IMG/VR virus record: IMGVR_UViG_3300037245_002365
DNA from: a virus
Taxonomy: Duplodnaviria; Heunggongvirae; Uroviricota; Caudoviricetes
Length of the DNA: 64,000 nt
Reading direction: 5' to 3' (one strand)
Each line of letters begins with the position of its first letter. Within the stretch, counting starts at the first letter, position 1. The translations under genes were made by a program, and so were the position numbers. The notes under the pieces are model-generated. The model was not told the DNA's origin. It saw only the letters and a list, made by a program, of their open reading frames with translations, and searched no databases. Below, piece after piece: positions 28,619 to 64,000 of the stretch.

Positions 28619-28694
28619 AAAGATTTATTAGAGAAGACTCAGTATTAAATTCAGTTTTAGTATTAAACGCCGCCCCTTAATGGGCTCGGCAATT

Positions 28695-46838: not shown

Positions 46839-47074
46839 ATTACTCTACTTTATAAATTACAATATTGTGGTATAAGAATGGTACATATTGATATGTATGT
46901 TCTTTTTTTAGTGCAGAATCTAATGCACCTATATAAATATAAACAATACTCTATTTATAGTCAAACACTTAATTAATATGAACGACCTTATTTATCGCCT
47001 TCCGACAGGCAAATAATTAAAAGAGAGAAATTTTTTCTCTCTAACCTAAAAATAGCATAAACCAAAGAATCTCA

Positions 47075-47530: not shown

Positions 47531-48433
47531 ATGAATATGTTTGATGTAGCGATGCTTGACAGAGATCAAAGTATTGATCTATCTAAAGCAATATATAGAA
47601 ACTATCATAGTTTCAATATACAGAAATCAAACGGCAAATTAAGAAGCATCGACGCACCCAGCGAAAAGTTAAAGGGAGTACAGAGCCAGATTCTGTATAA
47701 CATGCTGTACAAAATACCTGTGCATGAAAATGCAGTAGGGTTTGTACCGGGAATTAACGTAATCGAGGGTGCTGGTCGGCACTTAAATAAAGAAACATTG
47801 TTATGTATTGACTTAAAAAACTTTTTTCCAACTATCACATTAGCGATGGTTAAAAAAGCTGTAATTAAAATAGACAATATATTACAAAACAAAAATGAAG
47901 ACTATACACTGCTATCAGAATCGGAAGTCCTTGCCATGTCAAGAATACTTACATACAAGGGCGTCGTTCCGCAAGGAGCCCCGACTAGTCCGATGTTAGC
48001 AAACATAATCACATTTGAGTTAGACGAAAAACTAACAGAGTTGGCGGAAGATAATAATATGCTTTACACACGCTATGCGGATGATATATCCTTTAGCCAC
48101 GATGAAAAGAATTATGACATCTTCCAACATATAAACCGTATCAAAGAGTTTATTCAGGAGAGTAAACTTATTATAAATGATACTAAGACGAGAGTTATGA
48201 GACGCCATAAAAGACAAGTAGTCACAGGCGTTGTAGTAAATGACAAACTTAGTGTCCCAAAATGGAAATGGAGAAACTTTAAAGCGCAAGTTCACAACTA
48301 TATAAGAGATAACACCGTACTAAGTACGGAGGAGTATCAGAAAGTACGTGGATACGCTGAATGGCTAAATTGCCTAAACAGCGTTCGTGGAGAAAAAATC
48401 ATTAACATGCTACAACACGTAGCGGTACACTAA
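47531..48433 (+). CDS. Retron-type reverse transcriptase
   Basis: KSNGK.R.I.AP...LK..Q, AVGF, H, IDLKNFFPTI, PQGAPTSPMLAN, YTRYADDISFS, region-Y VTG.VVN. Confidence 0.9.
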   Translation: MNMFDVAMLDRDQSIDLSKAIYRNYHSFNIQKSNGKLRSIDAPSEKLKGVQSQILYNMLYKIPVHENAVGFVPGINVIEGAGRHLNKETLLCIDLKNFFPTITLAMVKKAVIKIDNILQNKNEDYTLLSESEVLAMSRILTYKGVVPQGAPTSPMLANIITFELDEKLTELAEDNNMLYTRYADDISFSHDEKNYDIFQHINRIKEFIQESKLIINDTKTRVMRRHKRQVVTGVVVNDKLSVPKWKWRNFKAQVHNYIRDNTVLSTEEYQKVRGYAEWLNCLNSVRGEKIINMLQHVAVH

Positions 48434-48620: not shown

Positions 48621-48809
48621 ATGAAATATTTTAAACTTTCACTTGAAACAGGAAAAAAACATAGTATAGGAAGGATCGTAGTAGTACGAGCCGGAGATAT
48701 TATCGAAGCATATGGCATCAGCAAAAAGTTCAGAAAGGCAAGATGCATGTCGGTAACACCTATAACACACGAAGAATACATGCAGGGCGTGTCAAAGAAA
48801 TACGATTAA
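48621..48809 (+). CDS. Small basic protein
   Basis: 62-aa ORF in RT operon. Confidence 0.5.
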   Translation: MKYFKLSLETGKKHSIGRIVVVRAGDIIEAYGISKKFRKARCMSVTPITHEEYMQGVSKKYD

Positions 48810-48822
48810 CCAAAATTAAGGT

Positions 48823-49563
48823 TTGCGGAAATTATTTACTGAAAACAGTAAAACTATTTTATCGATTGACATGGATAGAAGAACCACTTGCAAAGCGATA
48901 TGCGAATATTGCTATGTTGCAAATTTAGAAAGAATCTATCCAACCTATCACACCAAAATAGTTAAAAATGCAAACGAGGCAAAAGACAACCCGACAACAT
49001 TCGCTGAAAGATTAAACGAAGAGTATTCTCGTTATAGGAAGAGTTCATTAAAAAAGATGGACAGACTGGATAAGCTACCAGTCCGTTTTTACGGATCGGG
49101 CGACTTTATACCAGAACATCTAACAATATACAAAAACTTAACTTTTAAGCACTACATAATTACTAAAAATTTACTTAGACCGGAATATAGAAAGTATCTG
49201 AAAGAGATAGCAGCCATAGACAACGTGACAAACGTCGTCTTGAGTTTCGACTTTTCTAACATTTCGTGGTATAAGGATTTTACACAGTACCGTGGCATTG
49301 ATAAATATTCATTTGCCTTTACGGGAACGGCTGACGACTTTTCTAGCTTGAAATCAAAAGATTTCCAGTTTGACATATTTTTCAATATCTCAAACAAACA
49401 AGTTGAAAAGGATAAGTCAAAATTACTCAAGGAACAATGTCCTTGTGATAGCGGATCAATGGCACACAACAAAAGCTGCTCTTATTGTAGCAAATGCTGG
49501 CGATCAAACATTACCAAAACTAAAGAATGGAATACATTAAACCCAAAACAAGTGAAGACTTAA
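48823..49563 (+). CDS. GP88-like / radical-SAM-like CxxxCxxC protein
   Basis: TCKAICEYCY, VRFYGSGDF, C-terminal CPC...C..C.KCW. Confidence 0.65.
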   Translation: MRKLFTENSKTILSIDMDRRTTCKAICEYCYVANLERIYPTYHTKIVKNANEAKDNPTTFAERLNEEYSRYRKSSLKKMDRLDKLPVRFYGSGDFIPEHLTIYKNLTFKHYIITKNLLRPEYRKYLKEIAAIDNVTNVVLSFDFSNISWYKDFTQYRGIDKYSFAFTGTADDFSSLKSKDFQFDIFFNISNKQVEKDKSKLLKEQCPCDSGSMAHNKSCSYCSKCWRSNITKTKEWNTLNPKQVKT

Positions 49564-49745
49564 TAAAAGATATTGAAGCACAACTTGCAATAGCGAGAGA
49601 GCATCATGAAAGATTTTATGATTATCACTCAATGGTTCATGGTAGACACGCTAGAAAAGAAATGAAGGCGCTCCGAGCATTGATTTATCAATATTGGAAA
49701 ACCTCAATTAGAGAAGAAAGAGAAGAACGGGAAAGTAACAAATAG
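49527..49745 (+). CDS. Small helical protein
   Basis: 72-aa ORF, last gene before the non-coding element. Confidence 0.5.
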   Translation: MEYIKPKTSEDLIKDIEAQLAIAREHHERFYDYHSMVHGRHARKEMKALRALIYQYWKTSIREEREERESNK

Positions 49746-49759
49746 TTTGTTACTAACCC

Positions 49760-50737
49760 AGACACGTTATAGTTACCTTCGGGTATAACGGGTATGATAC
49801 GTACCCATAGCACTAATAGTTATTTTACGCAGGTTGCCCTCGCTCATGCTCGACGGACCCCAAACGCTCGAATGGGCCTCGCCTGAAATGGCTCGGTCGA
49901 TCCTCGCTTGTGTAGCCGTCGCAAAAACAAACACCGCAAAAACTAAAATCCTTCCCAGTTTCGCCATCGGACAAGTCCTCGACGAAACCGTACAGATATT
50001 AGTTTCTTGCCAGTTTGTTTTCGACGCATCGCGTTGCCAACTCGGACAAACGTAAAATAACTCGGAATTCACGAAAATACACATATATAGCTCAAATAAT
50101 GGTCATTTGACCTGGTTAACCTTAAGTAACCTTACTTAATAGGAGACTGGAGCGGCGGCTATTTGCGACCCCCGGGCAGAGATGTCCGACGCCCCGAACT
50201 TGAGGACCCAGTACCAAGAGCTACTAGCTCTCGGTACCCATGGCACCAAGAACGGTGGCCCACCAGTGTATATTTTCGAGTCCGCAGGTCCCCGGATGAC
50301 GGGGCCCCATGGATATCCGGCTCCGTTTAGCCTGCACCTAGTGCACGCGAAATACGCGTCGCCGGCTCCGGGAGGCAGCCACCGCAGTGGAGCCAATTTT
50401 AGTCTGGTGAGACCAGGCGCTATTCGAAGCCGCTATTCCCAGCTGGGAAACACGGCCGATCTGAAACCCTCAGCAGGATCTAATCGATAAGAATAATTGG
50501 CCCCAATTCCACAAACAGAAAGAAACAGAAAGAAACAGATTTTGAAATCTCGGCACGCTCGAACGACTACGTCGTTCTCTCTCAAGCTCAGCTTTAGTGA
50601 CAACTAAATCTTCGCTTGGCCTATCGTCCGGGCTCACGGCCCGCTCACTAACCTTAGGAAGAGTCGCGTGCCTTTGGGCTCCAGACGATGCTCGTCTGTG
50701 ACTCGCTCGATTTCACTGAGAAAAGTATAACGTGTCT
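49760..50737 (+). ncRNA. ~980-nt non-coding element bounded by a 12-bp inverted repeat (candidate giant retron msr-msd)
   Basis: agacacgttata(49760) / tataacgtgtct(50726); G49772 follows the left repeat; two short stem-loops next; GC-rich hairpin- and palindrome-dense interior; U-rich tract after the right repeat. Confidence 0.55.
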
Positions 50738-50825
50738 CTTTCTTTTTACCTTAAAAATTGTATTGGTTTATGTACGAAAATATGTTTATATTTAAGTATA
50801 GACAACAATAAACCATTAATAAATA

Positions 50826-52226
50826 ATGAGTAAAAAGAAAATACTAGTTTGGAGTGACTTTAATGTTCCTACAGGCTTCTCTAATGTTTCCATGAATTTG
50901 ATGGATGAGATGCACAAGGACTTCGATGTCTCTGTACTAGGAATTAATTATTTTGGGGACACCAAGTATGATACTTCAAAGTATTTTGTTTACAGTGTAG
51001 ACAGGACAGATATACTGGGACTCAAAAGATTAAATAGGATTATCAACGAAGTTGAGCCTGACGTCCTATTTTTATTCCAAGATATTTTTCATATCGGCGG
51101 GATAATTAAGGACCTTAAAGAAAAAGTATTAGAGGGAAGAAAGACTAAAATAGTTATTTATTTCCCTGTCGACGGCGGGCCATTCTCAGTTGCTTGGAAT
51201 AATGCTTTTAAATACGCTGATGCGGTAATCACTTACAGTGATTATGCCATACAAACAATTAAAGATACCATCCCTAATATTGAAAAGACAATACATAAAT
51301 TATACCACGGTGTAGATACTGATGTTTTTAGACGCTTACCAGATAAGAAAATAGCTGCGCTACGTGCAAATGCTGGATTAGACAGACTCGTACCAAAAGA
51401 TATTCCTAAGGAAAAAGCGGATACTCTGGCTAAAACATTAAGTTGGGAAAATAAGTTTGTAGTTTCAAATGTGAATAGGTTCCAACAAAGAAAAGCGATA
51501 CCTCTGACATTACGAGCATTCAGTATTTTTGCAAAGGGTTACAAAGAATGTGCTTGTGGAAACATTATGCCTTTAAATAGAGCGAGTTGCGACCTTAATA
51601 TGTGCCCTCCAGAAGACATCGTTAAGACAATAACTGAGGAAAAGAAAGATGTATTTTTATATCTGCATATGATGCCACAAGAACCTGGAATGGGTAGTGG
51701 TTTAGCGGACACATTACAAAACCATTTAGTAAATGCTGGATTTGTTAATAGCGATGTGCCTACTCATGAACATGGTGGAATTATTGGAATCAACGATAAG
51801 ATGATTTATAAAGGCGAAGTATCTCCACAGGAAGTAAACGAAATCTATAACGCAAGCAACATTAATATAAGTTCAACTCTTGGAGAGGGTTGTGGCCTAT
51901 CTTTAATAGAAGCTGCGGCTGCTGGTACTCCTAGTATCGCTCCAAAGAACTCCGCAATACCAGAAATGCTTAAAGATACGGGGCACCTAGTACCAAATAG
52001 CGGTTTAGCAAATATGCCTTATGATTGTGGATTTTTGAGACCATTAGTCTCAGTGCCTGACATGGTAATAGCTCTAGAAAAAGAGTATGCCAGATGGAAG
52101 GAATTGGGAACTGGTGGAAAAGAAGTTAGAGAGGAATGTATCGAAAACGTTCAAGAGAACTTTTTGTGGGACGATAAAAGAACAATGTTAAAAAATATAT
52201 TTGAATCGGTATTAAAAATGCCTTAA
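50826..52226 (+). CDS. GT-B (GT4-like) glycosyltransferase
   Basis: ILVWSD...PTGF.NV, YHGVDT..F, NVNRFQQRK, YNAS....S.TLGEG.GL..IEA.A.G.P. Confidence 0.88.
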   Translation: MSKKKILVWSDFNVPTGFSNVSMNLMDEMHKDFDVSVLGINYFGDTKYDTSKYFVYSVDRTDILGLKRLNRIINEVEPDVLFLFQDIFHIGGIIKDLKEKVLEGRKTKIVIYFPVDGGPFSVAWNNAFKYADAVITYSDYAIQTIKDTIPNIEKTIHKLYHGVDTDVFRRLPDKKIAALRANAGLDRLVPKDIPKEKADTLAKTLSWENKFVVSNVNRFQQRKAIPLTLRAFSIFAKGYKECACGNIMPLNRASCDLNMCPPEDIVKTITEEKKDVFLYLHMMPQEPGMGSGLADTLQNHLVNAGFVNSDVPTHEHGGIIGINDKMIYKGEVSPQEVNEIYNASNINISSTLGEGCGLSLIEAAAAGTPSIAPKNSAIPEMLKDTGHLVPNSGLANMPYDCGFLRPLVSVPDMVIALEKEYARWKELGTGGKEVREECIENVQENFLWDDKRTMLKNIFESVLKMP

Positions 52227-52408
52227 TCTTCTTCATCTTCGCTATAAAACCAGATTGTAATTATAGCACGACCTGCTTTGTCATAAGTAAAATTTTCATT
52301 ATACACTAGACATTCCGGGTCGTTTATAATTGCCTCATATGCTTCACGATCTGAATCGTCGTCGAGCATAAACTTCCTAACATTTTTCTTTCTAGTAATA
52401 CTAAACAT
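52223..52408 (-). CDS. Small acidic protein
   Basis: 61-aa ORF at end of - strand operon. Confidence 0.5.
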   Translation of the reverse strand: MFSITRKKNVRKFMLDDDSDREAYEAIINDPECLVYNENFTYDKAGRAIITIWFYSEDEED

Positions 52409-52564
52409 CTTCGTCGTCTGGATCAGACTCTAATTTTTTCCATTCGTTGCTTGCTGCTATTTTTTGCATTTCTTTTTCAGTATCACCGTTGTGTGGTACT
52501 CTTTTTATTTCTTTTGTTATAACGTTTTCAAAAACGTCATATGTTGCATATTTTTCCATAATTG

Positions 52565-55552
52565 TTAAGCCTGTCCTTTAGTCGGACCTTTTTGCTTCTC
52601 TCCTGTTACTTTTATTTTGTCTTGTTCTCTTGTGCCAGCTTTCTTTTGGTTAGGGGCTGCATTTACAGTTGGAGCTATCTGCTCTTCTACCATAGCTTGC
52701 ATCATCATCATGTCTTTTATCTTTTCAGTAACTAACATATGAGTCCTTGGCATTTTTTTGGCCAACTGTGCCATTTCTTTTTGAGCCATACCAACCGGCA
52801 TTGAAAGGAATTGTTGTGCATACTTCTCAATAATCATTAGAGGGTCTTCTGGTATTCCGCCTAACTCAACTGCCAGTTCGTCTTGCCATAACTCCATTCT
52901 TATTTTGAACAATTCATCTTCCTGCGCTTTCTGTGCCCTTGCTTGGTATTGGGCCAGTATTACTGAAGCCTTACCTTGTGCAACAGCAGCCGCTGTTTGT
53001 GTTTTAACCTGCATATTTAGAGAGTCTAAATATGTTTTTTGCATTAATTCTGTTTCTTTCGCTGGATCGAAACCGAACTTATCTAACAATGTTTGGTCAG
53101 AAATCTTACCGCCTGCATTTAACTGTATAGCAAGCTGTTTAGTCTCGGTATCATCAGTCATTCTAAGTTCTTTGAACTTTAATTTGATTTCCGGAAACTT
53201 ATATAAACTGCTTAATTTCGGAACAACAAAATAGTTTAAGAAGTCTTCTATTTGCTCTCTATAAACCATAAAGTGGTTTTCAACTATTCTCAATGAAATA
53301 GAAGAGCCTGTCCAAGTCGTGCCACCTTTAATGAATTCTATAGGTACACCTAAACTATTGATGATAGACTCTTCAATGAATTTCATCTCTGGAGTTAGGA
53401 GTAAAGCGCGAGCGTTTCCTCCAAGCTCCTGATAACCAATAGGTATCGGGAACACGCCAATATAGTTTGGATCGCGTCTCCATTTCTTTAACTGCTCTGT
53501 AATCTGTGACTTCCATTTACCAATATTTAATTGAGTATTTTTGTTTATGTAACCCAATGATAGGTAAGAATGTGTTGCGTCTTTTACCTCAATAGATAAC
53601 AAAGTATTGTCATTAATCTCTTCTATTTTCTTTACTTTTGAATACACAAAACCGTTGTCAAAGAAATATTTTTTATCGGTATTTGTTTTTTCTGGGTAAA
53701 AATTATTAACTTTATAGCCAAGTTTGGTAGCTAATGACTCTGCTTGACTCCCATTTAGTTTTAAAGACCAAGCCCTATTAACAGATGAATCGTCTTTACA
53801 AATAGTTGGGTAATACCCAAGACTTAATAATATATCTCTTAATTCATAAATAAGTGGAAGGTTACTCAATTTCAGATTTAATCTGGGATATTTTCCTTTC
53901 TCATAAAAGAAAGTTCCATCTCCGTCATAAATACCGGATAATAAACTAATTACATTTTCTTTAGTTAGTAGATTTTTTATATTACGAATAGATTTAGTTT
54001 GACATTTTTTTCCAATTAAGTTAATTAAAAAATTCTCTAGTACAACAGAATGCTTTCTAACATCACAACAATTCTCTCTAATATAAATTTCTGTTTCGTT
54101 TCCTTTTGGAATTAAGTTATCTAAATAATTTTTAATAAATTCTTGATATTCTGTTTCTTTGGCGTGCAAAGCAAACCCAACAGTACTATTATTAACAGAA
54201 CCTTCAGAAATATAAAATCCTAAAAATCGAAGGAAATCATTAGATACTTCTATAGTTTTTGGAAGTTTTTTTGTCCCTGCTCTCCAACTTTGCGTAACCC
54301 ATTCTTTAGTAATAAGTTCTTTATGATCAGATTCATCGGGTAACTCAGAAACAGGATAAGCTGTATAATCGTCTAAAGTAAGATCTTTTGCTTTTTTCCA
54401 TTCGTGTGTTTTAGTTTCTTTATTCCAAACCCTAAATGGATGGACACTATTAACTTTAGTGTCTATACCATAAAGACCAAAAGAAGTTAGAGATAACATA
54501 TAATCCCATTCTTCTAGTTCTCTTAATTTCCAATTAACAACACTAGTTTCAGAACCATCATATGTAATAAGCTTTTCATTCTTAAAATCAACTTCTTGTA
54601 ATTCTTTGATGCCGTTATTAGTATGCACTAGTGTGTCTGGTGACATACTAAAGGGGTCCATAGTAGTTGTATTCGCAGGGAATACCGCTTTCTTTGGAAC
54701 GATATGTTCTTGAGCAATTGCTTCGTTTCCACGACGCAATGTCTGCAAGTAATAAATTTCTTTAAGGGCTGGCAGAATTAATGGTTTACCCCAGCCCATG
54801 TCTTCCTCTGCAAGAGTAGGACGCTTCATGTGATAAAGGTTATTTGACTCCATCTCTATTTTCTTTTGCTCTTTAAGAGCTTGTAAGAAGATGTATGGTA
54901 TGTCTTTTAACAGCGTTTTATTGCCAGCTAGTATCTGTGCCTTAGTTTTATTTGGAATACTATAAAAATACGCAGATGAACCTGATATTGGATTATACTC
55001 GATATCTATATTTTCCGGTGCCCATCTAACTATGCTTAAAGCATCTAAAGTTTTTAGAGGCACATCAATTACGCCAGCGATGACATCACTGGATTCACAT
55101 TTAGGACAACGTTTAATTCTAAATTCATATTTTTTTATATCAAATACAATACTGTCAATTAAATGTTCTTCACCACAGATAGGGCATTTCAGATATCTCT
55201 TAAATTTTTGAAAGAATGACAAGAATACATTACCCATAGTATGATAATCTAAGCCCATTTCTATTAATAGTTTTTTAAGCTTTATTTGACTATACAATAC
55301 CGTATCAAATTTACCTCTAGTTTCCTCGTCAAATTCACCATAATATAAAATATCTGTTATTGGATATTCAGTAAGTTTGGTAACAACGTTTCTTAGAAAA
55401 CCATTAGTATAGAAAAAGGATTTGCAATACTTAAACAATGTTTTTATATTTCTTGGAATATAGTTATTCGCAAGATCAAAGAACGGGTCTGGATACTTTT
55501 TACTCCCTATCGTTACTAGATCGGCTTCTGTTAATGGTCTAGTGTTAGCCAC
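52565..55552 (-). CDS. Portal-like virion protein containing an intein (mature about 624 aa)
   Basis: GWGKPLILPALKEIY, IGYQELGG, IINSLGVP.EFI.GG portal-like motifs flanking the intein; portal call is by resemblance. Confidence 0.55.
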   Translation of the reverse strand: MANTRPLTEADLVTIGSKKYPDPFFDLANNYIPRNIKTLFKYCKSFFYTNGFLRNVVTKLTEYPITDILYYGEFDEETRGKFDTVLYSQIKLKKLLIEMGLDYHTMGNVFLSFFQKFKRYLKCPICGEEHLIDSIVFDIKKYEFRIKRCPKCESSDVIAGVIDVPLKTLDALSIVRWAPENIDIEYNPISGSSAYFYSIPNKTKAQILAGNKTLLKDIPYIFLQALKEQKKIEMESNNLYHMKRPTLAEEDMGWGKPLILPALKEIYYLQTLRRGNEAIAQEHIVPKKAVFPANTTTMDPFSMSPDTLVHTNNGIKELQEVDFKNEKLITYDGSETSVVNWKLRELEEWDYMLSLTSFGLYGIDTKVNSVHPFRVWNKETKTHEWKKAKDLTLDDYTAYPVSELPDESDHKELITKEWVTQSWRAGTKKLPKTIEVSNDFLRFLGFYISEGSVNNSTVGFALHAKETEYQEFIKNYLDNLIPKGNETEIYIRENCCDVRKHSVVLENFLINLIGKKCQTKSIRNIKNLLTKENVISLLSGIYDGDGTFFYEKGKYPRLNLKLSNLPLIYELRDILLSLGYYPTICKDDSSVNRAWSLKLNGSQAESLATKLGYKVNNFYPEKTNTDKKYFFDNGFVYSKVKKIEEINDNTLLSIEVKDATHSYLSLGYINKNTQLNIGKWKSQITEQLKKWRRDPNYIGVFPIPIGYQELGGNARALLLTPEMKFIEESIINSLGVPIEFIKGGTTWTGSSISLRIVENHFMVYREQIEDFLNYFVVPKLSSLYKFPEIKLKFKELRMTDDTETKQLAIQLNAGGKISDQTLLDKFGFDPAKETELMQKTYLDSLNMQVKTQTAAAVAQGKASVILAQYQARAQKAQEDELFKIRMELWQDELAVELGGIPEDPLMIIEKYAQQFLSMPVGMAQKEMAQLAKKMPRTHMLVTEKIKDMMMMQAMVEEQIAPTVNAAPNQKKAGTREQDKIKVTGEKQKGPTKGQA
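53537..54649 (-). mobile_element. Intein with LAGLIDADG homing endonuclease (371 aa)
   Basis: Block A SMSPDTLVHT..G, block B VNSVHPF, FLGFYISEG and LSGIYDGDG motifs, end THSYL..G.INKN|T. Confidence 0.85.
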
Positions 55553-55554
55553 TC

Positions 55555-56046
55555 TTAATTACTCTCCATAGATGCATAGTCTGTTATTCTTTTATATCTG
55601 TTTGCCTGTATTCCACGTTCATCATCTTTAAGCGGAAATGGGCCTGTCTTAGCGACCAACTTAAGTTGATCCATGTTCTCTTTATCGTTCAAGCCAATGC
55701 CGGGTGGATAAAATTTGTAGCCATTTGAATCAAAAATATATTTGATATACTCTAGAACCTCATGTGAAAGTTCTACGTCTGGGCGTAAATCTTTTATAAC
55801 CTTTATTGTAACCCAAATGTACTCCGGTAGAGTACCTTCAGTCTTGTTAATGTCTGGGTCAATATTATTTAGTACGAGGCTTACTTTCTCAAAGACTTCA
55901 AAGTCTTCATAAGCCCCTCTACGATTATTTAACAACCACAGAACTTGTATTTTTTGACGATCAATAGAAGACAAAGTCGGAAACAGCATTCGTATTGTTT
56001 CCGGCTCTATAAAATCACTATTGTTTATAAGATCACTTATTTTCAT
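55555..56046 (-). CDS. Hypothetical protein (virion module)
   Basis: 163-aa ORF coupled to portal-like gene. Confidence 0.6.
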   Translation of the reverse strand: MKISDLINNSDFIEPETIRMLFPTLSSIDRQKIQVLWLLNNRRGAYEDFEVFEKVSLVLNNIDPDINKTEGTLPEYIWVTIKVIKDLRPDVELSHEVLEYIKYIFDSNGYKFYPPGIGLNDKENMDQLKLVAKTGPFPLKDDERGIQANRYKRITDYASMESN

Positions 56047-56439
56047 TTATTTTGCTTTTGGTGTTTTAAATCTTTTATCAAGCATTTTTTTAAATGTTGG
56101 TTGTAATCCAAACCCTATTGCCATGGAAGGAACTGTTTTTAAAGCACGATAACTACTGCCTGCCCAATATTTTTTTATAAATCTACCAGCCTTCAAAGCT
56201 TTAAGTTTATATGGGCGTTTTCTAAATTTCATTTTGCTTTCTAGAGGTTTTTTTGCTTTAAAAGTGTCCTTGATTCCAGCTTTTGCTCTAACTTCTAAAA
56301 CATCTAATGGATTAACAATAGGAATTCCAATAAGTCCTGCTGCAGCTCCAGCTATTGCATGTTTTGCTTTTTCGCCCATATAGCGCTCTTTCTTTTTAGC
56401 AGCGTATTTATCCATTAACATATCAAAGTCTTTTTCCAT
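56047..56439 (-). CDS. Protein resembling one mitochondrial-carrier (Solcar) repeat
   Basis: IAGAAAGLIGIPIVNPLDVLEVR...YWAG....LKTVPSMAIGFG....KKML. Confidence 0.6.
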   Translation of the reverse strand: MEKDFDMLMDKYAAKKKERYMGEKAKHAIAGAAAGLIGIPIVNPLDVLEVRAKAGIKDTFKAKKPLESKMKFRKRPYKLKALKAGRFIKKYWAGSSYRALKTVPSMAIGFGLQPTFKKMLDKRFKTPKAK

Positions 56440-56447
56440 GGTGCTCC

Positions 56448-57527
56448 TTAGTCCATTAAACTAATAACGTCATCTATAACTGGATTAGGCATTGAGGCTA
56501 AAACCTCTAAACCTTCGTCTCCCTTAATAGCACTAATGTTATCGTTACCAACAATACCAGTTAAGTCTTCGTTAGATAGACTACGTAATTTTTCAGGTGT
56601 TACCTGCACGCCTCTGAGCATTATGAATGCAACCTTAGGCATCGATAAACAACTCATTACAGGGCATTCTACACCCTTTCCATACGCGTGTGTAATGCCG
56701 GATAACTTGTCTATCCGATACAACACCTGGGCAGTTTTTATTACTCCAAGCTCTTCAGAACTATCTCTGAGGTCATTGTAAAGTTCAGTGAAATCTTCAT
56801 CATTATCAGCCAGATAGCTCTTACGTACATTGATGTGTGATCCAAAATCTTTATTTAGCCTGGAATTATCTAGGTGAGCATACTTGCTTACAAGTGTGTC
56901 GTCTAATGATACTCCTTCGTCTTTTGCTGCGCTTGATACGTTTAGTACAAACTCTAGCTTTTTAGCCATGTCCATACCATAGTGCTCTCTTTCAAAGTAA
57001 CTCGCAGCTTTCTCGATTCCTTCTTGGTCACTAATATCATACTTCTGTTCTTCTTCCCATGCAAACCTGACTTTCGGTTCTTCAATTACACCAGCTTGTT
57101 TCTTCATGAAACTAACTTCATTGATTTTTGCTATGTCAACCATGTTGTCAACATACACTTTTGATTTGTAGGGTTCAAGCTCACTGGGAACAGGTACTCC
57201 ATACCTGTTCGCTGCACAAGTTAAATTTGCACCGGCCACTTTTACCAGTTCTTCTGGCAAGTCTCTTATGTTGTTCACTAGGAACGCCATATTAATTTCT
57301 GTCAACGCTGCTGTGTGATTTGCGTATTTCTTGAGCATACCCTGATGTGGATTCCACAAAATTAAAGCACAATCTGAATCGTCGCCTTCGTGCTGCTCTT
57401 CATAACTAGGAATATAAGCTTCCTTCGCCTCGTCAGATAGTGTCTCAACTAGTTCAGCCAGCTTTTCTATTTCCTCGTTCAACACCGCGTCTACAACGTC
57501 AAGTGTTTTACTAGCTATTTTTAGCAT
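56448..57527 (-). CDS. Hypothetical acidic protein (virion module)
   Basis: 359-aa ORF with RBS aggag. Confidence 0.65.
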   Translation of the reverse strand: MLKIASKTLDVVDAVLNEEIEKLAELVETLSDEAKEAYIPSYEEQHEGDDSDCALILWNPHQGMLKKYANHTAALTEINMAFLVNNIRDLPEELVKVAGANLTCAANRYGVPVPSELEPYKSKVYVDNMVDIAKINEVSFMKKQAGVIEEPKVRFAWEEEQKYDISDQEGIEKAASYFEREHYGMDMAKKLEFVLNVSSAAKDEGVSLDDTLVSKYAHLDNSRLNKDFGSHINVRKSYLADNDEDFTELYNDLRDSSEELGVIKTAQVLYRIDKLSGITHAYGKGVECPVMSCLSMPKVAFIMLRGVQVTPEKLRSLSNEDLTGIVGNDNISAIKGDEGLEVLASMPNPVIDDVISLMD

Positions 57528-57539
57528 TGGTTTTTCTCC

Positions 57540-57713
57540 TTATGCATTTATCATTTTTATACAATCGCTAATAGCCTCTAGTGCATCATCGATGGAATCA
57601 AAGATTTCATCTAGGTTGTACACTAAATCAGTATTGTGATTTATTATTTCTACTCTAAATTTATTTTCGTCTCTCAAGGAAGAATCAATGTTTATTTTGT
57701 ATTTTTCTCCCAT
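57540..57713 (-). CDS. Small leaderless protein (57 aa, not in ORF track)
   Basis: TTGCTT-17-TATATT then 5 nt to ATG 57713; MGEKYKINIDSS...CIKMINA*. Confidence 0.55.
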   Translation of the reverse strand: MGEKYKINIDSSLRDENKFRVEIINHNTDLVYNLDEIFDSIDDALEAISDCIKMINA

Positions 57714-57750
57714 GACTAAATATAGACGTTTTGCTCAATAAAAGCAAATA

Positions 57751-58338
57751 TTATTTGTTGAATATATGCTGGTACTGGAAGAGGGTTGTACCGTCGCCAT
57801 ACCCTGCACTTATAAAGTGGTTTTTGTAGATACTACCAACGCTCAGTCCCACAGAATTTCCATAGTTAAATGCACCTGCCGTGAAGTAGAATGTTCTTGT
57901 AAATTTCTTTGGAAGAATAAGTCTAACGTTGTTTAGTTTACCAGACATCTTCATTAGATTCACAGGTTTGTGATAGTATGTAGATGCTACCCAAACGTCC
58001 ATATCCATATGTATACCGTTTTCGTCGTCGGCAGCAAAATTAAATACTGTGTCAGCCGATGCAGTTTCTACATAAATTGTTTCGCCTTTTACGTATAAAG
58101 TATCTATAAGTGTATCGTGTACAGTGTTTGTAAATTCAAACTCAACTGTATCTATTCTAGCGGGCAACCAGCGTGTGGTTGTAACTGTCTCTATCCAAGG
58201 TTTCCCTTCAATGACGACAGGCTCTGGTATACTTGAATAAAAGTAGATAGCCAGAGCCATAACGCCCGGAAGTACGTAAGGACTTAATTTTTGATATGCG
58301 CTAGCGAAAAAACTAGCTATTTTTTTCATGATTAGCAT
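57751..58338 (-). CDS. Membrane-anchored protein
   Basis: N-terminal TM, Thr/Val/Asp-rich repeats (TVHDTLIDT), beta-rich C-terminus. Confidence 0.55.
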   Translation of the reverse strand: MLIMKKIASFFASAYQKLSPYVLPGVMALAIYFYSSIPEPVVIEGKPWIETVTTTRWLPARIDTVEFEFTNTVHDTLIDTLYVKGETIYVETASADTVFNFAADDENGIHMDMDVWVASTYYHKPVNLMKMSGKLNNVRLILPKKFTRTFYFTAGAFNYGNSVGLSVGSIYKNHFISAGYGDGTTLFQYQHIFNK

Positions 58339-58479
58339 GATATGTTCCCTTATTTAAGCTATCCCAAAATAATCGTCCAAAACGTAATTTAACTTTTTCA
58401 AGCATCTTGTCTAACTTGCGTCTCAACTTATACTCTTCATAGCTTTCGCTTTCTTTTCGTTTTGCTGGCCCTATATTCA

Positions 58480-58764
58480 TTATGATCCTTCTTCGGTTTC
58501 TTCTTCCTCTTCCGCCTCTTCGTCTTCCCCAACGACGTCAACTAATGCTTGTACATAACCTTGTTGCATGTCAAATTGTACTTTTAGTTTAGCCTGTGCG
58601 TCTGTAATTTGTTGAACCTGTGCTTGTAATTCTTGCTTACGCATTTCAAGTTCTTTGTTTTGTTCAACAGTTTGTGCTACAGCAGCCTTTGCTTTATCCA
58701 TGGTATCTTTGATACCCGCTACTGCTATCGTAGGTTCTTCCGATTTTTTCTTAATTTTTGCCAT
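58480..58764 (-). CDS. Coiled-coil protein
   Basis: Heptad-rich, acidic tail; preceded by TTGATT-17-TATATT promoter. Confidence 0.6.
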   Translation of the reverse strand: MAKIKKKSEEPTIAVAGIKDTMDKAKAAVAQTVEQNKELEMRKQELQAQVQQITDAQAKLKVQFDMQQGYVQALVDVVGEDEEAEEEEETEEGS

Positions 58765-58896
58765 TTTTAATAAATTGGTTTTTGGTTATACTTAAATATA
58801 AATATATTTTGAGGGATAATCAATTAAAAACATTGATTATTTCGCTTATTTTAGGTATAAGAATAGTGTAATAAACAATAATAAAGGAACAATATC

Positions 58897-59304
58897 ATGA
58901 AGCATTTAATTATGTTGTTGGTTGTTGGTTTGAGTATGTTTTGTGAAAATCCAGTATCTAGTAATCTAGACACAATACCTATTTCAGACTTTACAGTATC
59001 TCACGACTTATTGCCTTTTTATAATTGGAGTCGAAATGAGGAAGCCGAGATTACAGTTATAAATACTGGGAATTTTGAAGTGGATAGTGTATATATCTAT
59101 GTCGTATTGCTTGAGCAAGTTAAATCGGAAGTTAGATATACTATAAACGAAACTTGGAAGTTGGTAGCTATCCCTTATAATGGAACATGGGGCAAGATGG
59201 AGCATGGAACCGCTTGGTTTAAGTATCCAGATCTGGGTGAAATATTATATTCCGGAGATCCCGACTACCGCTATTCATGGGGAATCATTATTGAGATTAG
59301 ATAA
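58897..59304 (+). CDS. Exported/lipoprotein-like protein, lone + strand insertion
   Basis: Leader ending in Cys (FCENP); own AGGTATAAGAA motif (58853) and terminator. Confidence 0.6.
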   Translation: MKHLIMLLVVGLSMFCENPVSSNLDTIPISDFTVSHDLLPFYNWSRNEEAEITVINTGNFEVDSVYIYVVLLEQVKSEVRYTINETWKLVAIPYNGTWGKMEHGTAWFKYPDLGEILYSGDPDYRYSWGIIIEIR

Positions 59305-59309
59305 CCAAT

Positions 59310-59345
59310 AAAAAAGAAAGGCTGAAAACCCAGCCTTTCTTTTTA
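59310..59345. terminator. Bidirectional terminator
   Basis: aaaaagaaaggctg/cagcctttcttttt. Confidence 0.8.
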
Positions 59346-59347
59346 CC

Positions 59348-61999
59348 TTAAGTATCAAATACTACTTCAAAATAACCTGTTATATCATCAACTGTTATGT
59401 CTGGGCTGCCGGGCCCCGTTTCAGTGTAATATATTGAAAGTATATCGCCTGCAACAAAGGTATCTGTTCCGCGTGGCTGGGTGGCTGAGCTTGAGTAATC
59501 TGCATCACTTGTTACGGCTTCTGAAGAGTAGAACCCCGTAGCTACTCCATTCTTATATATTTCAAATCTAGCTACAGGGAGTGAACCAGATACATAATCA
59601 GCAGAAAACGTGACTCCCATTCCCACCATACTTCCTGGCCTAGCCATACAGTATCCTCTAGTAGCACTGCTTGTAATACCAGCCCAACAATCAATATATC
59701 CGCTGGTAGTGTGTTGTGTTGTATCACCAAACATAAATGTTGCTCGTTGGCCCATTAACTCACCATTTTCTACAATAACATCTCCGTCATTAAAATATGC
59801 TGCATAAGCTCCTCCGGACCCACTATTAGTAGCACTACCATATATACCCACATTATCGGTCGAGTCATTATCACTATGTGAGCTACCACGAATAGCAACG
59901 TTATTTGTAAATGAGTCTCCTACGTTATTCGCTACCCTTAGATCCCCGGCGTACATATATACATCCCCCCTTGTGTCACTAAACATATAAATTATAGAGT
60001 CATCGCCAATAAGCTGTATTCCTGGAATCTTCCCACCTGTAAGAAGATCATCAATTCGTACTATTTCATTATCACCAGCATCATAGAATACAAATGAATT
60101 GAGGGAAGCCCCATTAGTTCCCATTTGTATTCTTTGTCCAGTAGTGGCAGTTTGGAAATTACCACCAGAGATTGTGGCAACAGATGTAATTGATCCATCA
60201 GTCGCTATTTTAAATTTAGACGTACCAGAGGTTGATCCAGCAAAATATGCAGAACCATCACTATTTAAAGCGAATCCTCCACTATTGATTAGAGTTCCTG
60301 ATGTATTTAATTCTATGTTCGCGGCTTTCCAACTTAATACATTAGCATTAAACCTAATATAGGCTGCATCAGAAGCACTACCAACCGCGAAAGTTGTTTG
60401 GTCTAGCCAAAATCCAGCAGCATTACTAGCCGCGCTTGTTTTGCCGCTTGATATGTTTCCACCAGAACCAACGGTCATTGCATTCCCTAAACTAAAATCA
60501 GTATTGATTGTTAGGTTGTCAGCAGTTATATCGCCCTTAATACCTAATGTACTTGCCGTAACATTCCACTTTAAGTAACTAGTACTATCTCCAATAAACA
60601 ATTTAGGATCAGCGGGGTCCCAAACTTCAAAACCTGTTGTAATTATTGAAGCGTCGGTCGTGTTTAAACTTATGCCTGTACCTGACAATTGGTTATATAA
60701 TCCATCTTCGATGATTGTCCAACCACCAATAAAGTTATATTCTTCACCAATTTGAAATACTAATTTATTGTCTGCATCCCAGCCTTTTAAACCAAACTGA
60801 TTAGAACCCAAGTCACCAAGTTGAACTCTAGTCTGCCCTGTTGCACTGCCTGCACCGTCTCCAAAAGTTTGTGAGAAAAGTATATTTTGTGTGGAACCTT
60901 GAATCTCTATCCAACCGTGATCTCCATCATATACGGCTATTTTATAAACCACAGCTTTTGAATTATATTCTTCTGCAGGCGAACTTACAGTATTCCAGGT
61001 AAATGATCGTGTTATTGAATGTGTATATGTACCATCTAAATTATCTACAGGATCATTAGTAACTCTAATTGTTTCAGTTCCAGATCCATTGCCTTGTGAA
61101 GCTATCCTTATTAAGTCATCTTCTGAAAAGACATTGTTATCTACAGTCATTGATAATCCGCCAGTGGTTAAAACTTGAGTTAATTTTGCACCATCCGTGA
61201 TAGCCAAATCACCATTAATAATGTTAACCTCGTTCATCGCAAAGATATTACTTTGTAATGTTCCAGAAAAGGTTCCATCTACAGCATGTATGTGCCCGTC
61301 AAAATCAAATTTAAAACCAGCAGGAGTTAAGAACGCAGGATCATAGTTAGATGACTTAATATAGGGAGCTGAAGGGTTAGAACCATCTATTACGATATGA
61401 TTCCCAGTAGAAGCGCCAACTCTAATTTGAGGTATAAGGCTGTTTAGTGATATTCCTGCATCGGCTTCTGTAGCATCACTTGCTAAAGTTTGTGTACCAA
61501 TCTCCCAACCACCAATACTTCCTGTAGTTGCTGATATGTTTCCACTAATATTTAAGTTTTGGCCATCCCAATGGATATAATTACCATCTTCTTTGCCTGC
61601 AAAGAATTCATAATAAGTTGCGCCTTTTCCTAGAAGTACTCCAGCGTCACTGTTTGACCTTAAGAAGTCAGTAACAGCACCAAGCTGAATTAACTCATCA
61701 GTCGATTTAATATGTACATTGCCTTTCCAAATCTTTTCGCTGGTAATCTCCCATCCACCGATTTCTCCTACATTAACGAATAAGTATGATTCAGCGTTTA
61801 GGTGATCATGTGGTTCTCCTTCGGTTCCAGGAATTGGGCGATGCCCGATCATGAATCCGCTAGTACCTCCAGGAAACCATGTATTATCAAAAATTGCAGG
61901 AAAATAATTCCTATTCCACGTACTCTCGTCTTCTGCAGCGGCTTCCGAATTTTCACCAATTACATTTATTATTACTGCTGGTTCTAAAGGTGTTGCCAT
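59348..61999 (-). CDS. Tail/tail-fibre-like structural protein
   Basis: 883 aa Gly/Thr/Ser-rich; repeated G.IGGW.I, I.G.I.A motifs; GGNFQTATTGQRI. Confidence 0.65.
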   Translation of the reverse strand: MATPLEPAVIINVIGENSEAAAEDESTWNRNYFPAIFDNTWFPGGTSGFMIGHRPIPGTEGEPHDHLNAESYLFVNVGEIGGWEITSEKIWKGNVHIKSTDELIQLGAVTDFLRSNSDAGVLLGKGATYYEFFAGKEDGNYIHWDGQNLNISGNISATTGSIGGWEIGTQTLASDATEADAGISLNSLIPQIRVGASTGNHIVIDGSNPSAPYIKSSNYDPAFLTPAGFKFDFDGHIHAVDGTFSGTLQSNIFAMNEVNIINGDLAITDGAKLTQVLTTGGLSMTVDNNVFSEDDLIRIASQGNGSGTETIRVTNDPVDNLDGTYTHSITRSFTWNTVSSPAEEYNSKAVVYKIAVYDGDHGWIEIQGSTQNILFSQTFGDGAGSATGQTRVQLGDLGSNQFGLKGWDADNKLVFQIGEEYNFIGGWTIIEDGLYNQLSGTGISLNTTDASIITTGFEVWDPADPKLFIGDSTSYLKWNVTASTLGIKGDITADNLTINTDFSLGNAMTVGSGGNISSGKTSAASNAAGFWLDQTTFAVGSASDAAYIRFNANVLSWKAANIELNTSGTLINSGGFALNSDGSAYFAGSTSGTSKFKIATDGSITSVATISGGNFQTATTGQRIQMGTNGASLNSFVFYDAGDNEIVRIDDLLTGGKIPGIQLIGDDSIIYMFSDTRGDVYMYAGDLRVANNVGDSFTNNVAIRGSSHSDNDSTDNVGIYGSATNSGSGGAYAAYFNDGDVIVENGELMGQRATFMFGDTTQHTTSGYIDCWAGITSSATRGYCMARPGSMVGMGVTFSADYVSGSLPVARFEIYKNGVATGFYSSEAVTSDADYSSSATQPRGTDTFVAGDILSIYYTETGPGSPDITVDDITGYFEVVFDT

Positions 62000-62376
62000 T
62001 AGATATCGTAGTCCTCTCCATAGAAACCTGAATCCTTAAATACTAAAAAATTAAATATTTTCGCGCTTCTAGTTATTGCTGTAGGGTTAAATAACTCTAC
62101 ATCATATTCCCACGGTGTGAGCGGATCTTCAGCCAATACCGTTGTCCCATCAGTAGCAAATACAGTTGCAACTATACCATCTCCGTAGTATTCAAGACGA
62201 TAAGTATCGTCTGTAAATGTAGAGGTGTCTATATCAAATTTGCCAAACTTATCAGTGGAACCTTCCCACATATCTCTATCGTCTAGTTCCCTAATAATCT
62301 TTACTAAAACAGCTACTCTTGGAAGACCTTCTTCACCAATAAGTGTTCTAGTTACATGTTTTACTGATACAGTCAT
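61999..62376 (-). CDS. Putative structural protein
   Basis: 125-aa ORF coupled to tail-like gene. Confidence 0.5.
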   Translation of the reverse strand: MTVSVKHVTRTLIGEEGLPRVAVLVKIIRELDDRDMWEGSTDKFGKFDIDTSTFTDDTYRLEYYGDGIVATVFATDGTTVLAEDPLTPWEYDVELFNPTAITRSAKIFNFLVFKDSGFYGEDYDI

Positions 62377-63482: not shown

Positions 63483-64000
63483 AAAAGCAGAGTAATTAGT
63501 ACCTAAAACAGTTTGTAGACTTAGCTCCCATGTACTCTCTAAAGGAAGATCTACAGTATATTTTTGTGTTGAGTTATAAGTATAGTCTAAAACACTAAAT
63601 CTAGCTTTGTCTAGTTGTAATGCAGAGTCTTCAAAAGGAACGCTCTTAAATGTAAAACCACTCCCATTAGTTCTTACTTCTGCAGGATCTATTCCATCAG
63701 GATCTTCTCCGGCAGAAATTCCAGTAATTTCAAGTGTTGTTGCGCCACCACCAGTTGTTGCTGTATTGCTTATAATGGTATATTTATTATCTGCTGTAAC
63801 AAAGTTAGGACAATAAAGGTCATAACCAGCTAATTCATCTTCGGCTACATCTAATCCATCTTCCCCGGTAACTACATCATGAATTAGTAGTGTGTCTGTT
63901 CCTGAAGTTCCTATCAGTCCAACCCAATTCCATTTTAGTTCCAGTTCAGAAAGTTTTACATTATGATCTTTATCGTATGGATTATTATCAGATATTCTGA
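63476..64000 (-). CDS. 3' end of a structural gene starting beyond the window
   Basis: Minus frame appears open from window end to stop near 63476; not checked codon by codon. Confidence 0.45.

What the first reader, a model, noticed from the sequence alone, without database searches (positions are those of the whole stretch)
50050..50490. Natural 'polylinker': dense chain of different palindromic restriction-type sites (possible anti-restriction decoy)
Seen: between 50065 and 50488 there are 16 six-base palindromes of 15 different sequences (not counting ATATAT/TATATA): GAATTC 50065, GTTAAC 50115, CTTAAG 50121, CCCGGG 50171, GGTACC 50233, CCATGG 50238 and 50307, GGGCCC 50302, GATATC 50312, GTGCAC 50341, ACGCGT 50354, GCCGGC 50361, TTCGAA 50423, CAGCTG 50440, CGGCCG 50453, ATCGAT 50483. 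About 7 would be expected at 1/64 per position. Several are chained with overlaps of a base or two (GGGCCC-CCATGG-GATATC; GGTACC-CCATGG; GGTTAACC-CTTAAG). All 16 four-base palindromes occur, plus CCWGG, GGWCC, GANTC, CAGCAG, GAGACC, CCTCAGC, CTGGAG and TAGGAG. Established: these are recognition sites of Type II/III R-M, DISARM (CCWGG) and one BREX system (TAGGAG). Inference: selection for maximal site diversity. If copied to multicopy DNA by the RT, this could be a broad-spectrum sponge for host restriction or methyl-sensing defences.
Basis: partly seen in the sequence, partly recalled or inferred. Interest (0 to 1): 0.9.

Follow-up and report, generated by a model that had tools for sequence, protein, structure and literature searches.

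The report
Restriction-site array in phage retron RNA
A family of large marine phages keeps, just after a retron-type reverse transcriptase gene, a transcribed non-coding stretch that selection keeps packed with many different 6-base restriction-type palindromes, probably a template for nucleic acid aimed at the host's restriction enzymes, which no paper I found describes.

Summary
Positions 50050-50490 hold 18 hexamer palindromes, 17 of them distinct, against 7.5±2.6 in dinucleotide shuffles (P≈0.0005). In this window alone that is borderline. The whole 1-kb gap is not enriched, and two other spots reach a similar z.

The comparison with relatives settles it:
- The orthologous GC-rich gap (retron-type RT, then radical-SAM GP88, then gap, then glycosyltransferase) carries a 2.5-4x excess in 19 of 25 independent loci whose gaps do not align.
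- Pooled over 20 loci there are 405 palindromes against 139 expected.
- The excess is specific to 6 bp and more diverse than composition predicts.
- The same sites recur across loci, for example CTGCAG in 16 of 20.
- The rest of this phage window avoids hexamer palindromes (O/E 0.8; 0.5 for GC-rich ones).

The array lies inside a retron-like RNA: an a1/a2 inverted repeat with a G after a1, then a terminator. In an orthologue it is transcribed, and the RNA ends at the terminator.

Best reading: it is the template cargo of a phage retron, probably a decoy or bait for Type II restriction-modification enzymes. The function is untested, and no cDNA has been shown. This scan found the same thing earlier on other phage DNA.

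The parts
46855..46883 (+). Promoter-like box (TG-extended -10, TGGTATAAGA) ahead of the RT operon
   Evidence: Member of a repeat family found at four sites in the window (D4/D8). In L004, L026, L022, L003 and L024 the same box sits directly before the ncRNA units.
47531..48433 (+). Retron-type reverse transcriptase, 300 aa, with YADD and VTG motifs
   Evidence: Pfam RVT_1 at 2e-24. PADLOC retron RT models match, best RT_XIII at 5.7e-77. Motifs read in the translation. Present in every related locus that is long enough.
48621..48809 (+). Conserved 62-aa ORF of unknown function, just before GP88
   Evidence: tblastn finds it at the same position in nearly all related loci, at 41-62% identity. 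No Pfam family.
48823..49563 (+). GP88-family (PF17338) protein with a radical-SAM fold
   Evidence: Invariant CxxxCxxC motif plus four C-terminal Cys. AlphaFold model at pLDDT 88. Best structural matches are QueE (Z 9.1), viperin (8.4), NifB and TYW1. Atlas structure neighbours are Radical_SAM/SPASM clusters.
49760..49772 (+). Left inverted repeat (a1, AGACACGTTATA), followed at once by G 49772, the candidate priming G
   Evidence: Perfect 12-nt complement of 50726-50737. The same layout, a1 then G, is seen in L004/L026, L022, L025 and L034, and imperfectly in L016 and L017.
49773..50062 (+). 5' structured, palindrome-poor domain (msr-like). It holds a UUCG hairpin and a long stem 49818-49829 / 50051-50062 that encloses a 221-nt insert.
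   Evidence: Inverted repeats I7, I2 and I9; fold. One palindrome in 300 nt against 5.2 expected. Same order of parts as in L004/L026, where SL1 and SL2 show compensatory changes.
50063..50490 (+). The 'polylinker': 18 hexamer palindromes, 17 distinct, at 54% GC
   Evidence: Orthologous arrays in 19 of 25 independent loci. The ORFs inside it have no homologues in related loci.
50491..50725 (+). 3' GC-rich domain with no palindromes, lying between the array and a2
   Evidence: No palindromes against 3.6 expected. Local hairpins in the fold. Most relatives lack this domain: there the array ends 12-26 nt before a2.
50726..50747 (+). Right inverted repeat (a2, TATAACGTGTCT) followed by a U-rich run, which together look like a terminator
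   Evidence: In relatives a simple hairpin terminator follows a2. In the orthologue L010 an RNA contig ends 1 nt after the U8 tract.
50743..50760 (+). Recurrent post-terminator box (TTTTTACCTTAAAAATTG), probably a phage promoter for the glycosyltransferase gene 50826-52226
   Evidence: Repeat families D6 and D12. The same box follows the terminator in L001, L002, L004, L023, L025 and L026.

Best explanation
The palindrome cluster is the cargo (template, msd-like) segment of a very large retron-type non-coding RNA. It is encoded at the 3' end of a conserved phage operon: retron-type RT, a 62-aa protein, the radical-SAM protein GP88, then the ncRNA.

Shown:
- Selection keeps this segment GC-rich and filled with many different 6-bp palindromes of the Type II restriction-site kind, while its sequence otherwise drifts freely.
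- The rest of the phage genome avoids the same words.
- The segment is enclosed by an a1/a2 inverted repeat with a G directly after a1, and is followed by a terminator.
- In an orthologue it is transcribed with the RT operon.

Inferred:
- The RT primes from that G and copies the array into RT-DNA. The product could be single-stranded, an RNA:DNA hybrid, or made double-stranded later.
- This abundant nucleic acid presents restriction-type sites to the host's Type II restriction-modification enzymes. It would act either as a sponge that occupies them or as a bait whose cutting or methylation is sensed.

My odds are about 0.8 for the identity (a retron-like RNA carrying a selected site array) and about 0.35 for the restriction-directed function. 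The confidence figure is for the whole statement.
For: 1. The excess is family-wide. The core of the orthologous gap, defined before counting, is enriched 2.5-4x (z 3-8) in 13 of 16 and 6 of 9 independent loci. Pooled: 316 against 119; 405 against 139. The gaps share no alignable sequence apart from promoter and terminator boxes.

2. The unit under selection is exactly 6 bp. 8-mers number a quarter of 6-mers and 10-mers about a quarter of 8-mers. The 4-mer excess (179) is explained by nested hexamers (197). Interrupted dyads reach only 1.1-1.5x. That points to recognition by proteins with 6-bp specificity, not to hairpins or hybridisation.

3. Diversity is higher than composition predicts (282 against 245 distinct, z 6).

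4. Particular sites recur in unalignable arrays: CTGCAG in 16 of 20 (null 6.3), TTCGAA 14 (3.9), GGATCC 14 (6.9), AACGTT, GTTAAC and ATCGAT. Dispersion is 147 against 44±8.

5. The other 62.9 kb of the window under-represents hexamer palindromes: O/E 0.80, and 0.49-0.56 for those with 4-6 G/C. Non-palindromes sit at 1.00.

6. The layout is retron-like. The window has a 12-nt perfect a1/a2 pair plus G. Perfect repeats of at least 10 nt plus G occur in 5 of 22 loci against 0.57 in shuffles, with two more imperfect cases. L004 and L026 are 83% identical genome-wide. They keep the promoter, a1, SL1, a2 and terminator, show compensatory changes in SL1 and SL2, and have unalignable arrays. In five loci the array ends 12-26 nt before a2, where a retron RT would start copying.

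7. The RT is retron-type, with YADD and VTG intact.

8. The array is expressed in an orthologue. In two metatranscriptomes of one study, contigs spanning RT, GP88 and the array have depth 93 (X7) and 28/101 (X8), falling to 0-12 after the predicted terminator. One contig ends 1 nt after the U8 tract.
Against: - No reverse-transcribed DNA has been seen. Two DNA metagenomes show flat contig depth across the array (5-8 and 2-5). This is a weak test, because each contig gives one depth figure and single-stranded DNA is not captured.
- The enclosed RNA is about 980 nt here, and the arrays are 170-770 nt. By my recollection known retron msd segments are under roughly 200 nt, so this is far longer.
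- The RNA lies 1.3 kb downstream of the RT, not just upstream of it.
- A clear a1/a2+G is found in only 5-7 of 22 loci.
- No Rfam family matched the region, even at E up to 10.
- Type II enzymes need duplex DNA. Because each site occurs once, the sites cannot sit in intramolecular stems of a single strand. A hybrid or a second strand has to be assumed.
- Restriction acts on entering DNA before phage genes are expressed.
- Four relatives (L001, L015, L018, L019) keep the RT and GP88 without an enriched array. The array is therefore dispensable.
- The sites in this window's array are no more strongly avoided in the genome than other palindromes (O/E 0.68 against 0.75).
- The genomic copy of the array is itself a restriction target.
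- A sister finding of this scan is flagged 'its bold reading fell' on later check. The reason was not visible to me.
Confidence: 0.4

Rival explanations
1. The array works as RNA only. The many self-complementary hexamers would act as 'stickers' that let copies of the transcript pair with one another (multimers, condensates or scaffolds), and the RT would have nothing to do with it.
For: The RNA is abundant and ends at a terminator in an orthologue. Palindromes are by definition self-complementary between two copies. Parts of some arrays fold better than shuffles (z -2 to -5.6 in 3 of 6 tested, run incomplete).
Against: - Pairing would favour longer palindromes, yet 8- and 10-mers sit exactly at chance extension of 6-mers.
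- Stickers need not differ from one another, yet diversity is above expectation.
- The same specific hexamers recur across unalignable arrays.
- The genome-wide avoidance of the same words points to a DNA-level agent.
- The array lies inside an a1/a2+G unit next to a retron RT.
Confidence: 0.1
2. The array acts in cis as double-stranded genomic DNA. It might be a deliberate cutting or recombination hotspot, a landing pad, or a binding field for dimeric proteins. The RT would at most supply a repair template.
For: In the genome the sites are true duplex restriction sites. The segment turns over completely between phages that are 83% identical, as expected of a recombination-prone cassette. DNA depth is flat, so no extra copies are needed.
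Against: - A cluster of sites that the rest of the genome avoids would be a pure liability in cis.
- The element has its own promoter box in several loci, a terminator, covarying stems and an a1/a2+G frame. These are features of an RNA gene.
- It is highly transcribed.
Confidence: 0.12
3. The palindromes are a by-product with no function. Candidates are a mutational process such as RT snap-back or template switching followed by re-insertion, relaxed avoidance in non-coding DNA, or plain chance or composition in this window.
For: In this window alone the signal is modest and the boundaries were chosen after seeing the data. The arrays evolve fast.
Against: - Dinucleotide-matched shuffles are exceeded at z 18.8 when pooled. 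Relaxed avoidance cannot give a 2.9-fold excess.
- Snap-back would give a range of lengths, not a sharp 6-bp unit.
- The same particular hexamers recur in independent arrays.
- The rest of each gap is at expectation.
Confidence: 0.05

Closest known systems
Bacterial retrons (for example Retron-Eco1/Ec86 and Retron-Sen2/St85), whose msDNA serves as a bait for phage methylases and nucleases
   Same: The RT falls in the retron clade, with YADD and VTG. The non-coding RNA is framed by an a1/a2 inverted repeat with a G right after a1. RT, RNA and accessory proteins share one operon. That retron DNA is read by sequence-specific DNA enzymes is documented for Dam and Dcm triggers; I take this from my own knowledge and from the abstract of bioRxiv 10.64898/2026.10.13.758329 listed.
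   Different: The element is carried as a conserved gene set of a large lytic-type phage, not in a bacterial defence island. The RNA lies downstream of the RT and is about 980 nt. The template is not one hairpin but a non-repeating array of 6-bp palindromes. The accessory protein has a radical-SAM fold. No msDNA has been shown.
Protein DNA mimics that block restriction (T7 Ocr, ArdA)
   Same: If the decoy reading is right, the logic is the same: an abundant look-alike substrate occupies restriction enzymes early in infection.
   Different: Those are proteins aimed at Type I systems. Here the candidate decoy is nucleic acid carrying real Type II-type sites. This comparison rests on my own knowledge and was not tested here.
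Restriction-site (palindrome) avoidance in phage genomes
   Same: The remainder of this window shows the classical avoidance (O/E 0.80 overall; 0.5 for GC-rich palindromes).
   Different: The array is the mirror image: a local 2.4-4x enrichment of the very class of words that is avoided elsewhere.
Viral retron-like RTs catalogued from metagenomes (PMC13681634)
   Same: That survey reports 338 viruses with retron-specific RT domains and suggests they may interfere with host defence.
   Different: In the passages I searched (term 'retron'), the survey gives no template RNA, palindrome array or mechanism.

Membership tests
Retron (RT + msr-msd ncRNA) | RT of the retron clade with a YADD catalytic box and a VTG motif | tested here: met
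   PADLOC retron RT models match, best at 5.7e-77. RYADD and VVTG are read in the translation. The NAxxH box reads NAVGF, so it is not canonical.
Retron (RT + msr-msd ncRNA) | ncRNA framed by inverted repeats a1/a2 | tested here: met
   12-nt perfect repeat at 49760-49771 / 50726-50737. Analogous repeats occur in 5-7 of 22 related loci, against 0.57 expected.
Retron (RT + msr-msd ncRNA) | Conserved priming G directly 3' of a1, forming a 2'-5' branch | tested here: inconclusive
   A G is present at 49772 and after a1 in L004/L026, L022, L025, L034, L016 and L017. The branch itself cannot be tested with these tools.
Retron (RT + msr-msd ncRNA) | Production of multicopy RT-DNA (msDNA) from the msd | not testable with these tools
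   Only contigs were available. DNA contig depth is flat across the orthologous array. Single-stranded DNA would not be captured.
Retron (RT + msr-msd ncRNA) | Compact ncRNA next to (usually upstream of) the RT, with a hairpin msd under about 200 nt | tested here: not met
   The RNA starts 1.3 kb downstream of the RT stop and is about 980 nt. The template is a non-repeating array, not one long hairpin.
Retron (RT + msr-msd ncRNA) | Match to a catalogued retron msr RNA family in Rfam | tested here: inconclusive
   No Rfam family reached E of 10 or better within 49746-50760. The only two hits lie upstream of, or overlap, its 5' edge and look like chance.
Diversity-generating retroelement (DGR) | Template repeat with a near-identical variable repeat in a target gene | tested here: not met
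   No repeat of the region anywhere in the 64-kb window. The RT matches retron models, not DGR models.
Group II intron | Intron RNA domains (for example domain V) around an intron-encoded RT | tested here: not met
   No Rfam intron hit at either threshold. The RT is 300 aa with only the RVT_1 domain detected.
Radical SAM superfamily (for the neighbour GP88) | CxxxCxxC cluster motif on a partial (beta/alpha) barrel | tested here: met
   The motif is invariant in 20 homologues. The model's best matches are QueE, viperin, NifB, TYW1 and PFL-AE at Z 7.7-9.1. The Pfam Radical_SAM model itself does not hit.

The most novel reading that the evidence does not exclude
Large phages use a retron reverse transcriptase to make many copies of a nucleic acid that carries a catalogue of Type II restriction sites. 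This would neutralise or sense the host's restriction-modification enzymes. It would be the first nucleic-acid anti-restriction decoy or bait, and the first retron working for a virus.
Probability: 0.25. Interest if true: 0.92.

Novelty: new variant of a known kind. Interest (0 to 1): 0.8.

Why it matters
Retrons are known as bacterial anti-phage systems whose DNA product is watched for tampering by phage enzymes. Here the same machinery is a conserved part of a phage. Its template has been turned into something that looks purpose-built: a non-repeating array of restriction-type sites, kept by selection in a genome that otherwise purges such sites.

If the product engages restriction-modification enzymes, it would be a new class of counter-defence, made of nucleic acid, broad in spectrum and evolvable by simple site gain and loss. 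It would also be a natural example of very long retron-templated DNA, which matters for retron-based DNA production and genome editing.

Even if the function differs, one signal remains unexplained. The same 6-bp words (CTGCAG, TTCGAA, GGATCC and others) are selected in arrays that cannot be aligned with one another.

Tried and rejected
- Rfam at gathering and at E of 10 or better: nothing in the element.
- blastn of the element against 50,697 phage records: no match.
- Alignment of the window's gap with L001's gap: random-level identity.
- DGR reading: no template/variable repeat pair.
- Coding reading: the 102-, 86- and 103-aa ORFs inside the gap have no homologue in any related locus and no Pfam hit.
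- Cloning-vector or assembly artefact: rejected. Different arrays sit at the same genomic position in contigs from IMG/VR, ENA, NCBI, Logan and JGI.
- RNA duplex search over long flanks: uninterpretable. Replaced by exact and near-exact repeat searches.
- Fold-energy z-scores of the arrays: the run timed out after 6 loci, with mixed results.
- Spacing of the sites: close to random placement.
- Whether the window's array prefers the sites most avoided in its genome: no difference.
- Foldseek against PDB and Swiss-Prot for GP88: only weak TIM-barrel or radical-SAM rows. VIA-align was clearer.
- Sequencing runs for the window itself: one DNA holder that may be the source sample, and no RNA holder listed.
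- Whole-genome search: no genome is held for this window.
- Literature: six searches found no description of palindrome-rich retron templates in phages.

Full report
**What is there.** The window comes from a large AT-rich phage (37% GC). It carries ten tRNAs, a tmRNA and a fused beta/beta' RNA polymerase, and contigs holding its GP88 protein reach 228 kb. The finding lies in an ORF-free, GC-rich gap at 49746-50825. On the same strand upstream are:
- a 300-aa retron-type reverse transcriptase at 47531-48433 (Pfam RVT_1 2e-24; PADLOC retron RT models, best 5.7e-77; YADD and VTG present);
- a conserved 62-aa ORF at 48621-48809;
- a Cys-rich GP88-family protein at 48823-49563.

A glycosyltransferase gene follows at 50826.

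**The observation.** Positions 50050-50490 hold 18 palindromic hexamers, 17 distinct, against 7.5±2.6 in dinucleotide-preserving shuffles, P≈0.0005. The other claims are true but unremarkable. All sixteen 4-mers occur, but 6.6% of shuffles do the same. The asymmetric or interrupted motifs linked to Type III, BREX and DISARM occur once or twice each.

Taken alone the window is a borderline case:
- The boundaries were chosen after seeing the data.
- The whole gap is not enriched (19-23 against 16-21).
- The two flanks of the cluster are depleted (1 palindrome in 555 nt).
- Two other non-coding spots, near 27.7 and 28.7 kb, reach a similar z in a sliding scan.

**Relatives settle it.** The order RNA polymerase, RT, GP88, gap, glycosyltransferase is kept in every related locus I fetched: 44 loci in all, about 25 of them independent, from IMG/VR, JGI, ENA, NCBI and Logan. 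The gaps are 470-2400 nt. They share no alignable sequence beyond promoter and terminator boxes. Each has a GC-rich core (55-68% GC in genomes of 26-42%).

I defined that core by composition before counting anything. Results:
- Hexamer palindromes exceed shuffles 2.5-4 fold, at z 3-8, in 13 of 16 and 6 of 9 independent loci.
- Pooled counts are 316 against 119 (z 18.8) and 405 against 139 over 20 loci.
- Outside the core, the gaps sit at expectation.
- Four relatives (L001, L015, L018, L019) lack the excess.

**The nature of the signal.** Three properties stand out.
1. It is sharply 6 bp. Palindromic 8-mers are one quarter of 6-mers and 10-mers about one quarter of 8-mers. The 4-mer excess is accounted for by nested hexamers. 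Dyads with a spacer of 1-8 nt are only 1.1-1.5x.
2. The sites are more diverse than composition predicts: 282 against 245 distinct, z 6. L008 has 27 of 27 distinct and L020 19 of 19.
3. Site identity is shared among arrays that cannot be aligned. CTGCAG is present in 16 of 20 (null 6.3), TTCGAA in 14 (3.9) and GGATCC in 14 (6.9). AACGTT, GTTAAC and ATCGAT are also over-used. CGCGCG, GCGCGC, CGGCCG, CTATAG, CATATG and CAATTG are under-used. Dispersion is 147 against 44±8.

In the remaining 62.9 kb of the window the opposite holds. Hexamer palindromes are under-represented (O/E 0.80 overall; 0.49-0.56 for those with 4-6 G/C), while non-palindromes are at 1.00. This is the classical signature of restriction-site avoidance.

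Together these results argue for selection by sequence-specific proteins with 6-bp dyad specificity. They argue against RNA hairpins, generic self-pairing, a mutational by-product or chance.

**The array sits in a retron-like RNA gene.** In the window a perfect 12-nt inverted repeat (49760-49771 / 50726-50737) encloses the whole element. The base after the left arm is G, and the right arm runs into a U-rich tract.

L004 and L026 are 83% identical genome-wide and show the plan clearly. The order is:
- a TG-extended -10 box;
- a1 (10 nt), then G;
- a small hairpin, with one compensatory A:U to G:C change between the two phages;
- a long AU-rich stem whose two arms change together;
- the array, which is unalignable between the two;
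- a2, a hairpin terminator, and the next promoter box.

Perfect repeats of at least 10 nt followed by G frame the core in 5 of 22 loci, against 0.57 in shuffled controls. Two more loci have 13-16-bp imperfect versions. In five loci the array ends 12-26 nt before a2, which is where a retron RT begins copying.

The window's element is unusually elaborate. It has a 290-nt 5' domain and a 235-nt 3' domain, both palindrome-poor, on either side of the array.

**Expression.** No RNA data exist for the window's own phage. For the widespread orthologue L010 (identical to L002), two metatranscriptomes from one study hold the RT-GP88-array stretch:
- Contig depths are 93 (X7) and 28/101 (X8), falling to 0-12 downstream.
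- One contig ends 1 nt after the U8 tract of the predicted terminator.
- In X8 the unitig carrying the array is 3.6 times deeper than the RT-GP88 unitig.
- Two DNA metagenomes are flat across the region, at 5-8 and 2-5.

These are contigs from a single study, so this is a hint of transcription and termination, not a measurement. The flat DNA depth gives no sign of extra duplex copies, but it cannot see single-stranded DNA.

**The neighbour GP88.** Twenty homologues share an invariant CxxxCxxC motif and four C-terminal cysteines. The AlphaFold model (pLDDT 88) matches radical-SAM enzymes best: QueE at Z 9.1, viperin at 8.4, then NifB, TYW1 and PFL-AE. Atlas structure neighbours agree. GP88 is therefore a small, divergent radical-SAM enzyme. 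Whether it acts on the RT product is unknown. Conserved adjacency in a strongly syntenic phage family is weak evidence of a link.

**How it most likely works.**

Shown: the selected site array, the genome-wide avoidance of the same words, the retron-type RT, the a1/a2+G frame, and transcription in an orthologue.

Inferred: the RT primes from the G and copies the array into abundant RT-DNA. This product, as a hybrid or after second-strand synthesis, presents Type II-type sites to host restriction-modification enzymes. It would act as a sponge, or as a bait in the manner of bacterial retrons whose msDNA is read by phage methylases.

Difficulties:
- Each site occurs once, so the sites cannot lie in intramolecular stems. 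A duplex partner has to be assumed.
- Restriction acts before phage genes are expressed.
- The template is far longer than any known msd.
- The array is dispensable in some relatives.
- The genomic copy is itself a target.
- No cDNA has been seen.

I put the identity at about 0.8 and the restriction-directed function at about 0.35.

**Known or new.** Six literature searches found no description of such templates. A metagenomic survey lists 338 viruses with retron-type RTs and only speculates that they may interfere with host defence (PMC13681634).

This scan has met the same phenomenon before in other phage genomes. Those notes agree on a retron template carrying a restriction-site array. One of them (e1-1919689) is marked as having had its bold reading fall on later check.

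- the 6-bp specificity test;
- the shared site preferences across arrays;
- the contrast with genome-wide avoidance in the same phage;
- the radical-SAM assignment of GP88;
- the metatranscriptome evidence.

I class the element as a new variant of a known kind (retrons), of high interest, with its function open.

Noticed in passing
window 48621-48809 (+): A 62-aa ORF directly before GP88 is conserved at the same position in nearly all related loci (41-62% identity). It has no Pfam family. A small conserved protein before a radical-SAM enzyme could be its substrate or partner.
   Followed up: partly
window 48823-49563 (+): GP88 (PF17338) is a divergent radical-SAM enzyme, with an invariant CxxxCxxC motif, four C-terminal Cys, and QueE- and viperin-like structural matches. 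Pfam's Radical_SAM model does not detect it.
   Followed up: yes
window 1-49745 and 50826-64000: Hexamer palindromes are under-represented across the phage: O/E 0.80 overall and about 0.5 for GC-rich ones. Seven palindromes are absent altogether (CACGTG, CCCGGG, CCGCGG, CTCGAG, GCCGGC, GGATCC, GGCGCC).
   Followed up: yes
window 27573-27859 and 28619-29134: Two other non-coding structured regions flank gene 27860-28618 and are mildly rich in palindromes (for example 18 against 10.9, P 0.03). The first follows the same TGGTATAAGA promoter box. I did not establish whether they are further RT templates.
   Followed up: partly
window 46855-46883, 27544-27572, 4329-4357, 856-884; also L003 3466, L004 5686, L026 5176: A recurrent TG-extended -10 box (TGGTATAAGA) marks early-type promoters. 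A second box (TTTTTACnTTAAGAAT) follows terminators at 36324, 36849, 50743 and 59314 and in relatives. The two probably belong to two promoter classes of this phage family.
   Followed up: no
L003 2781-4476; L023 5215-7623: Some relatives have gaps of 1.7-2.4 kb with several promoter-started, hairpin-rich units after the array. Many hairpins have CG-UUU-CG or UUCG loops, which suggests more than one non-coding RNA per RT.
   Followed up: no
window 52565-55552 (-): A 995-aa ORF has a weak portal-protein match and an inserted LAGLIDADG/intein region. Inteins also interrupt the RNA polymerase and glycosyltransferase genes of relatives (L004, L002).
   Followed up: no
L010 5889-5918: A 30-nt stretch just before the orthologous array is shared with an unrelated 946-nt contig in one metatranscriptome. 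This creates an assembly branch there. I did not determine what the other sequence is.
   Followed up: no
window 49527-49745 (+): The 72-aa ORF overlapping the end of GP88 is conserved only in L023 and L035 (37-41% identity) and not in L001. It may be a lineage-specific small gene.
   Followed up: partly
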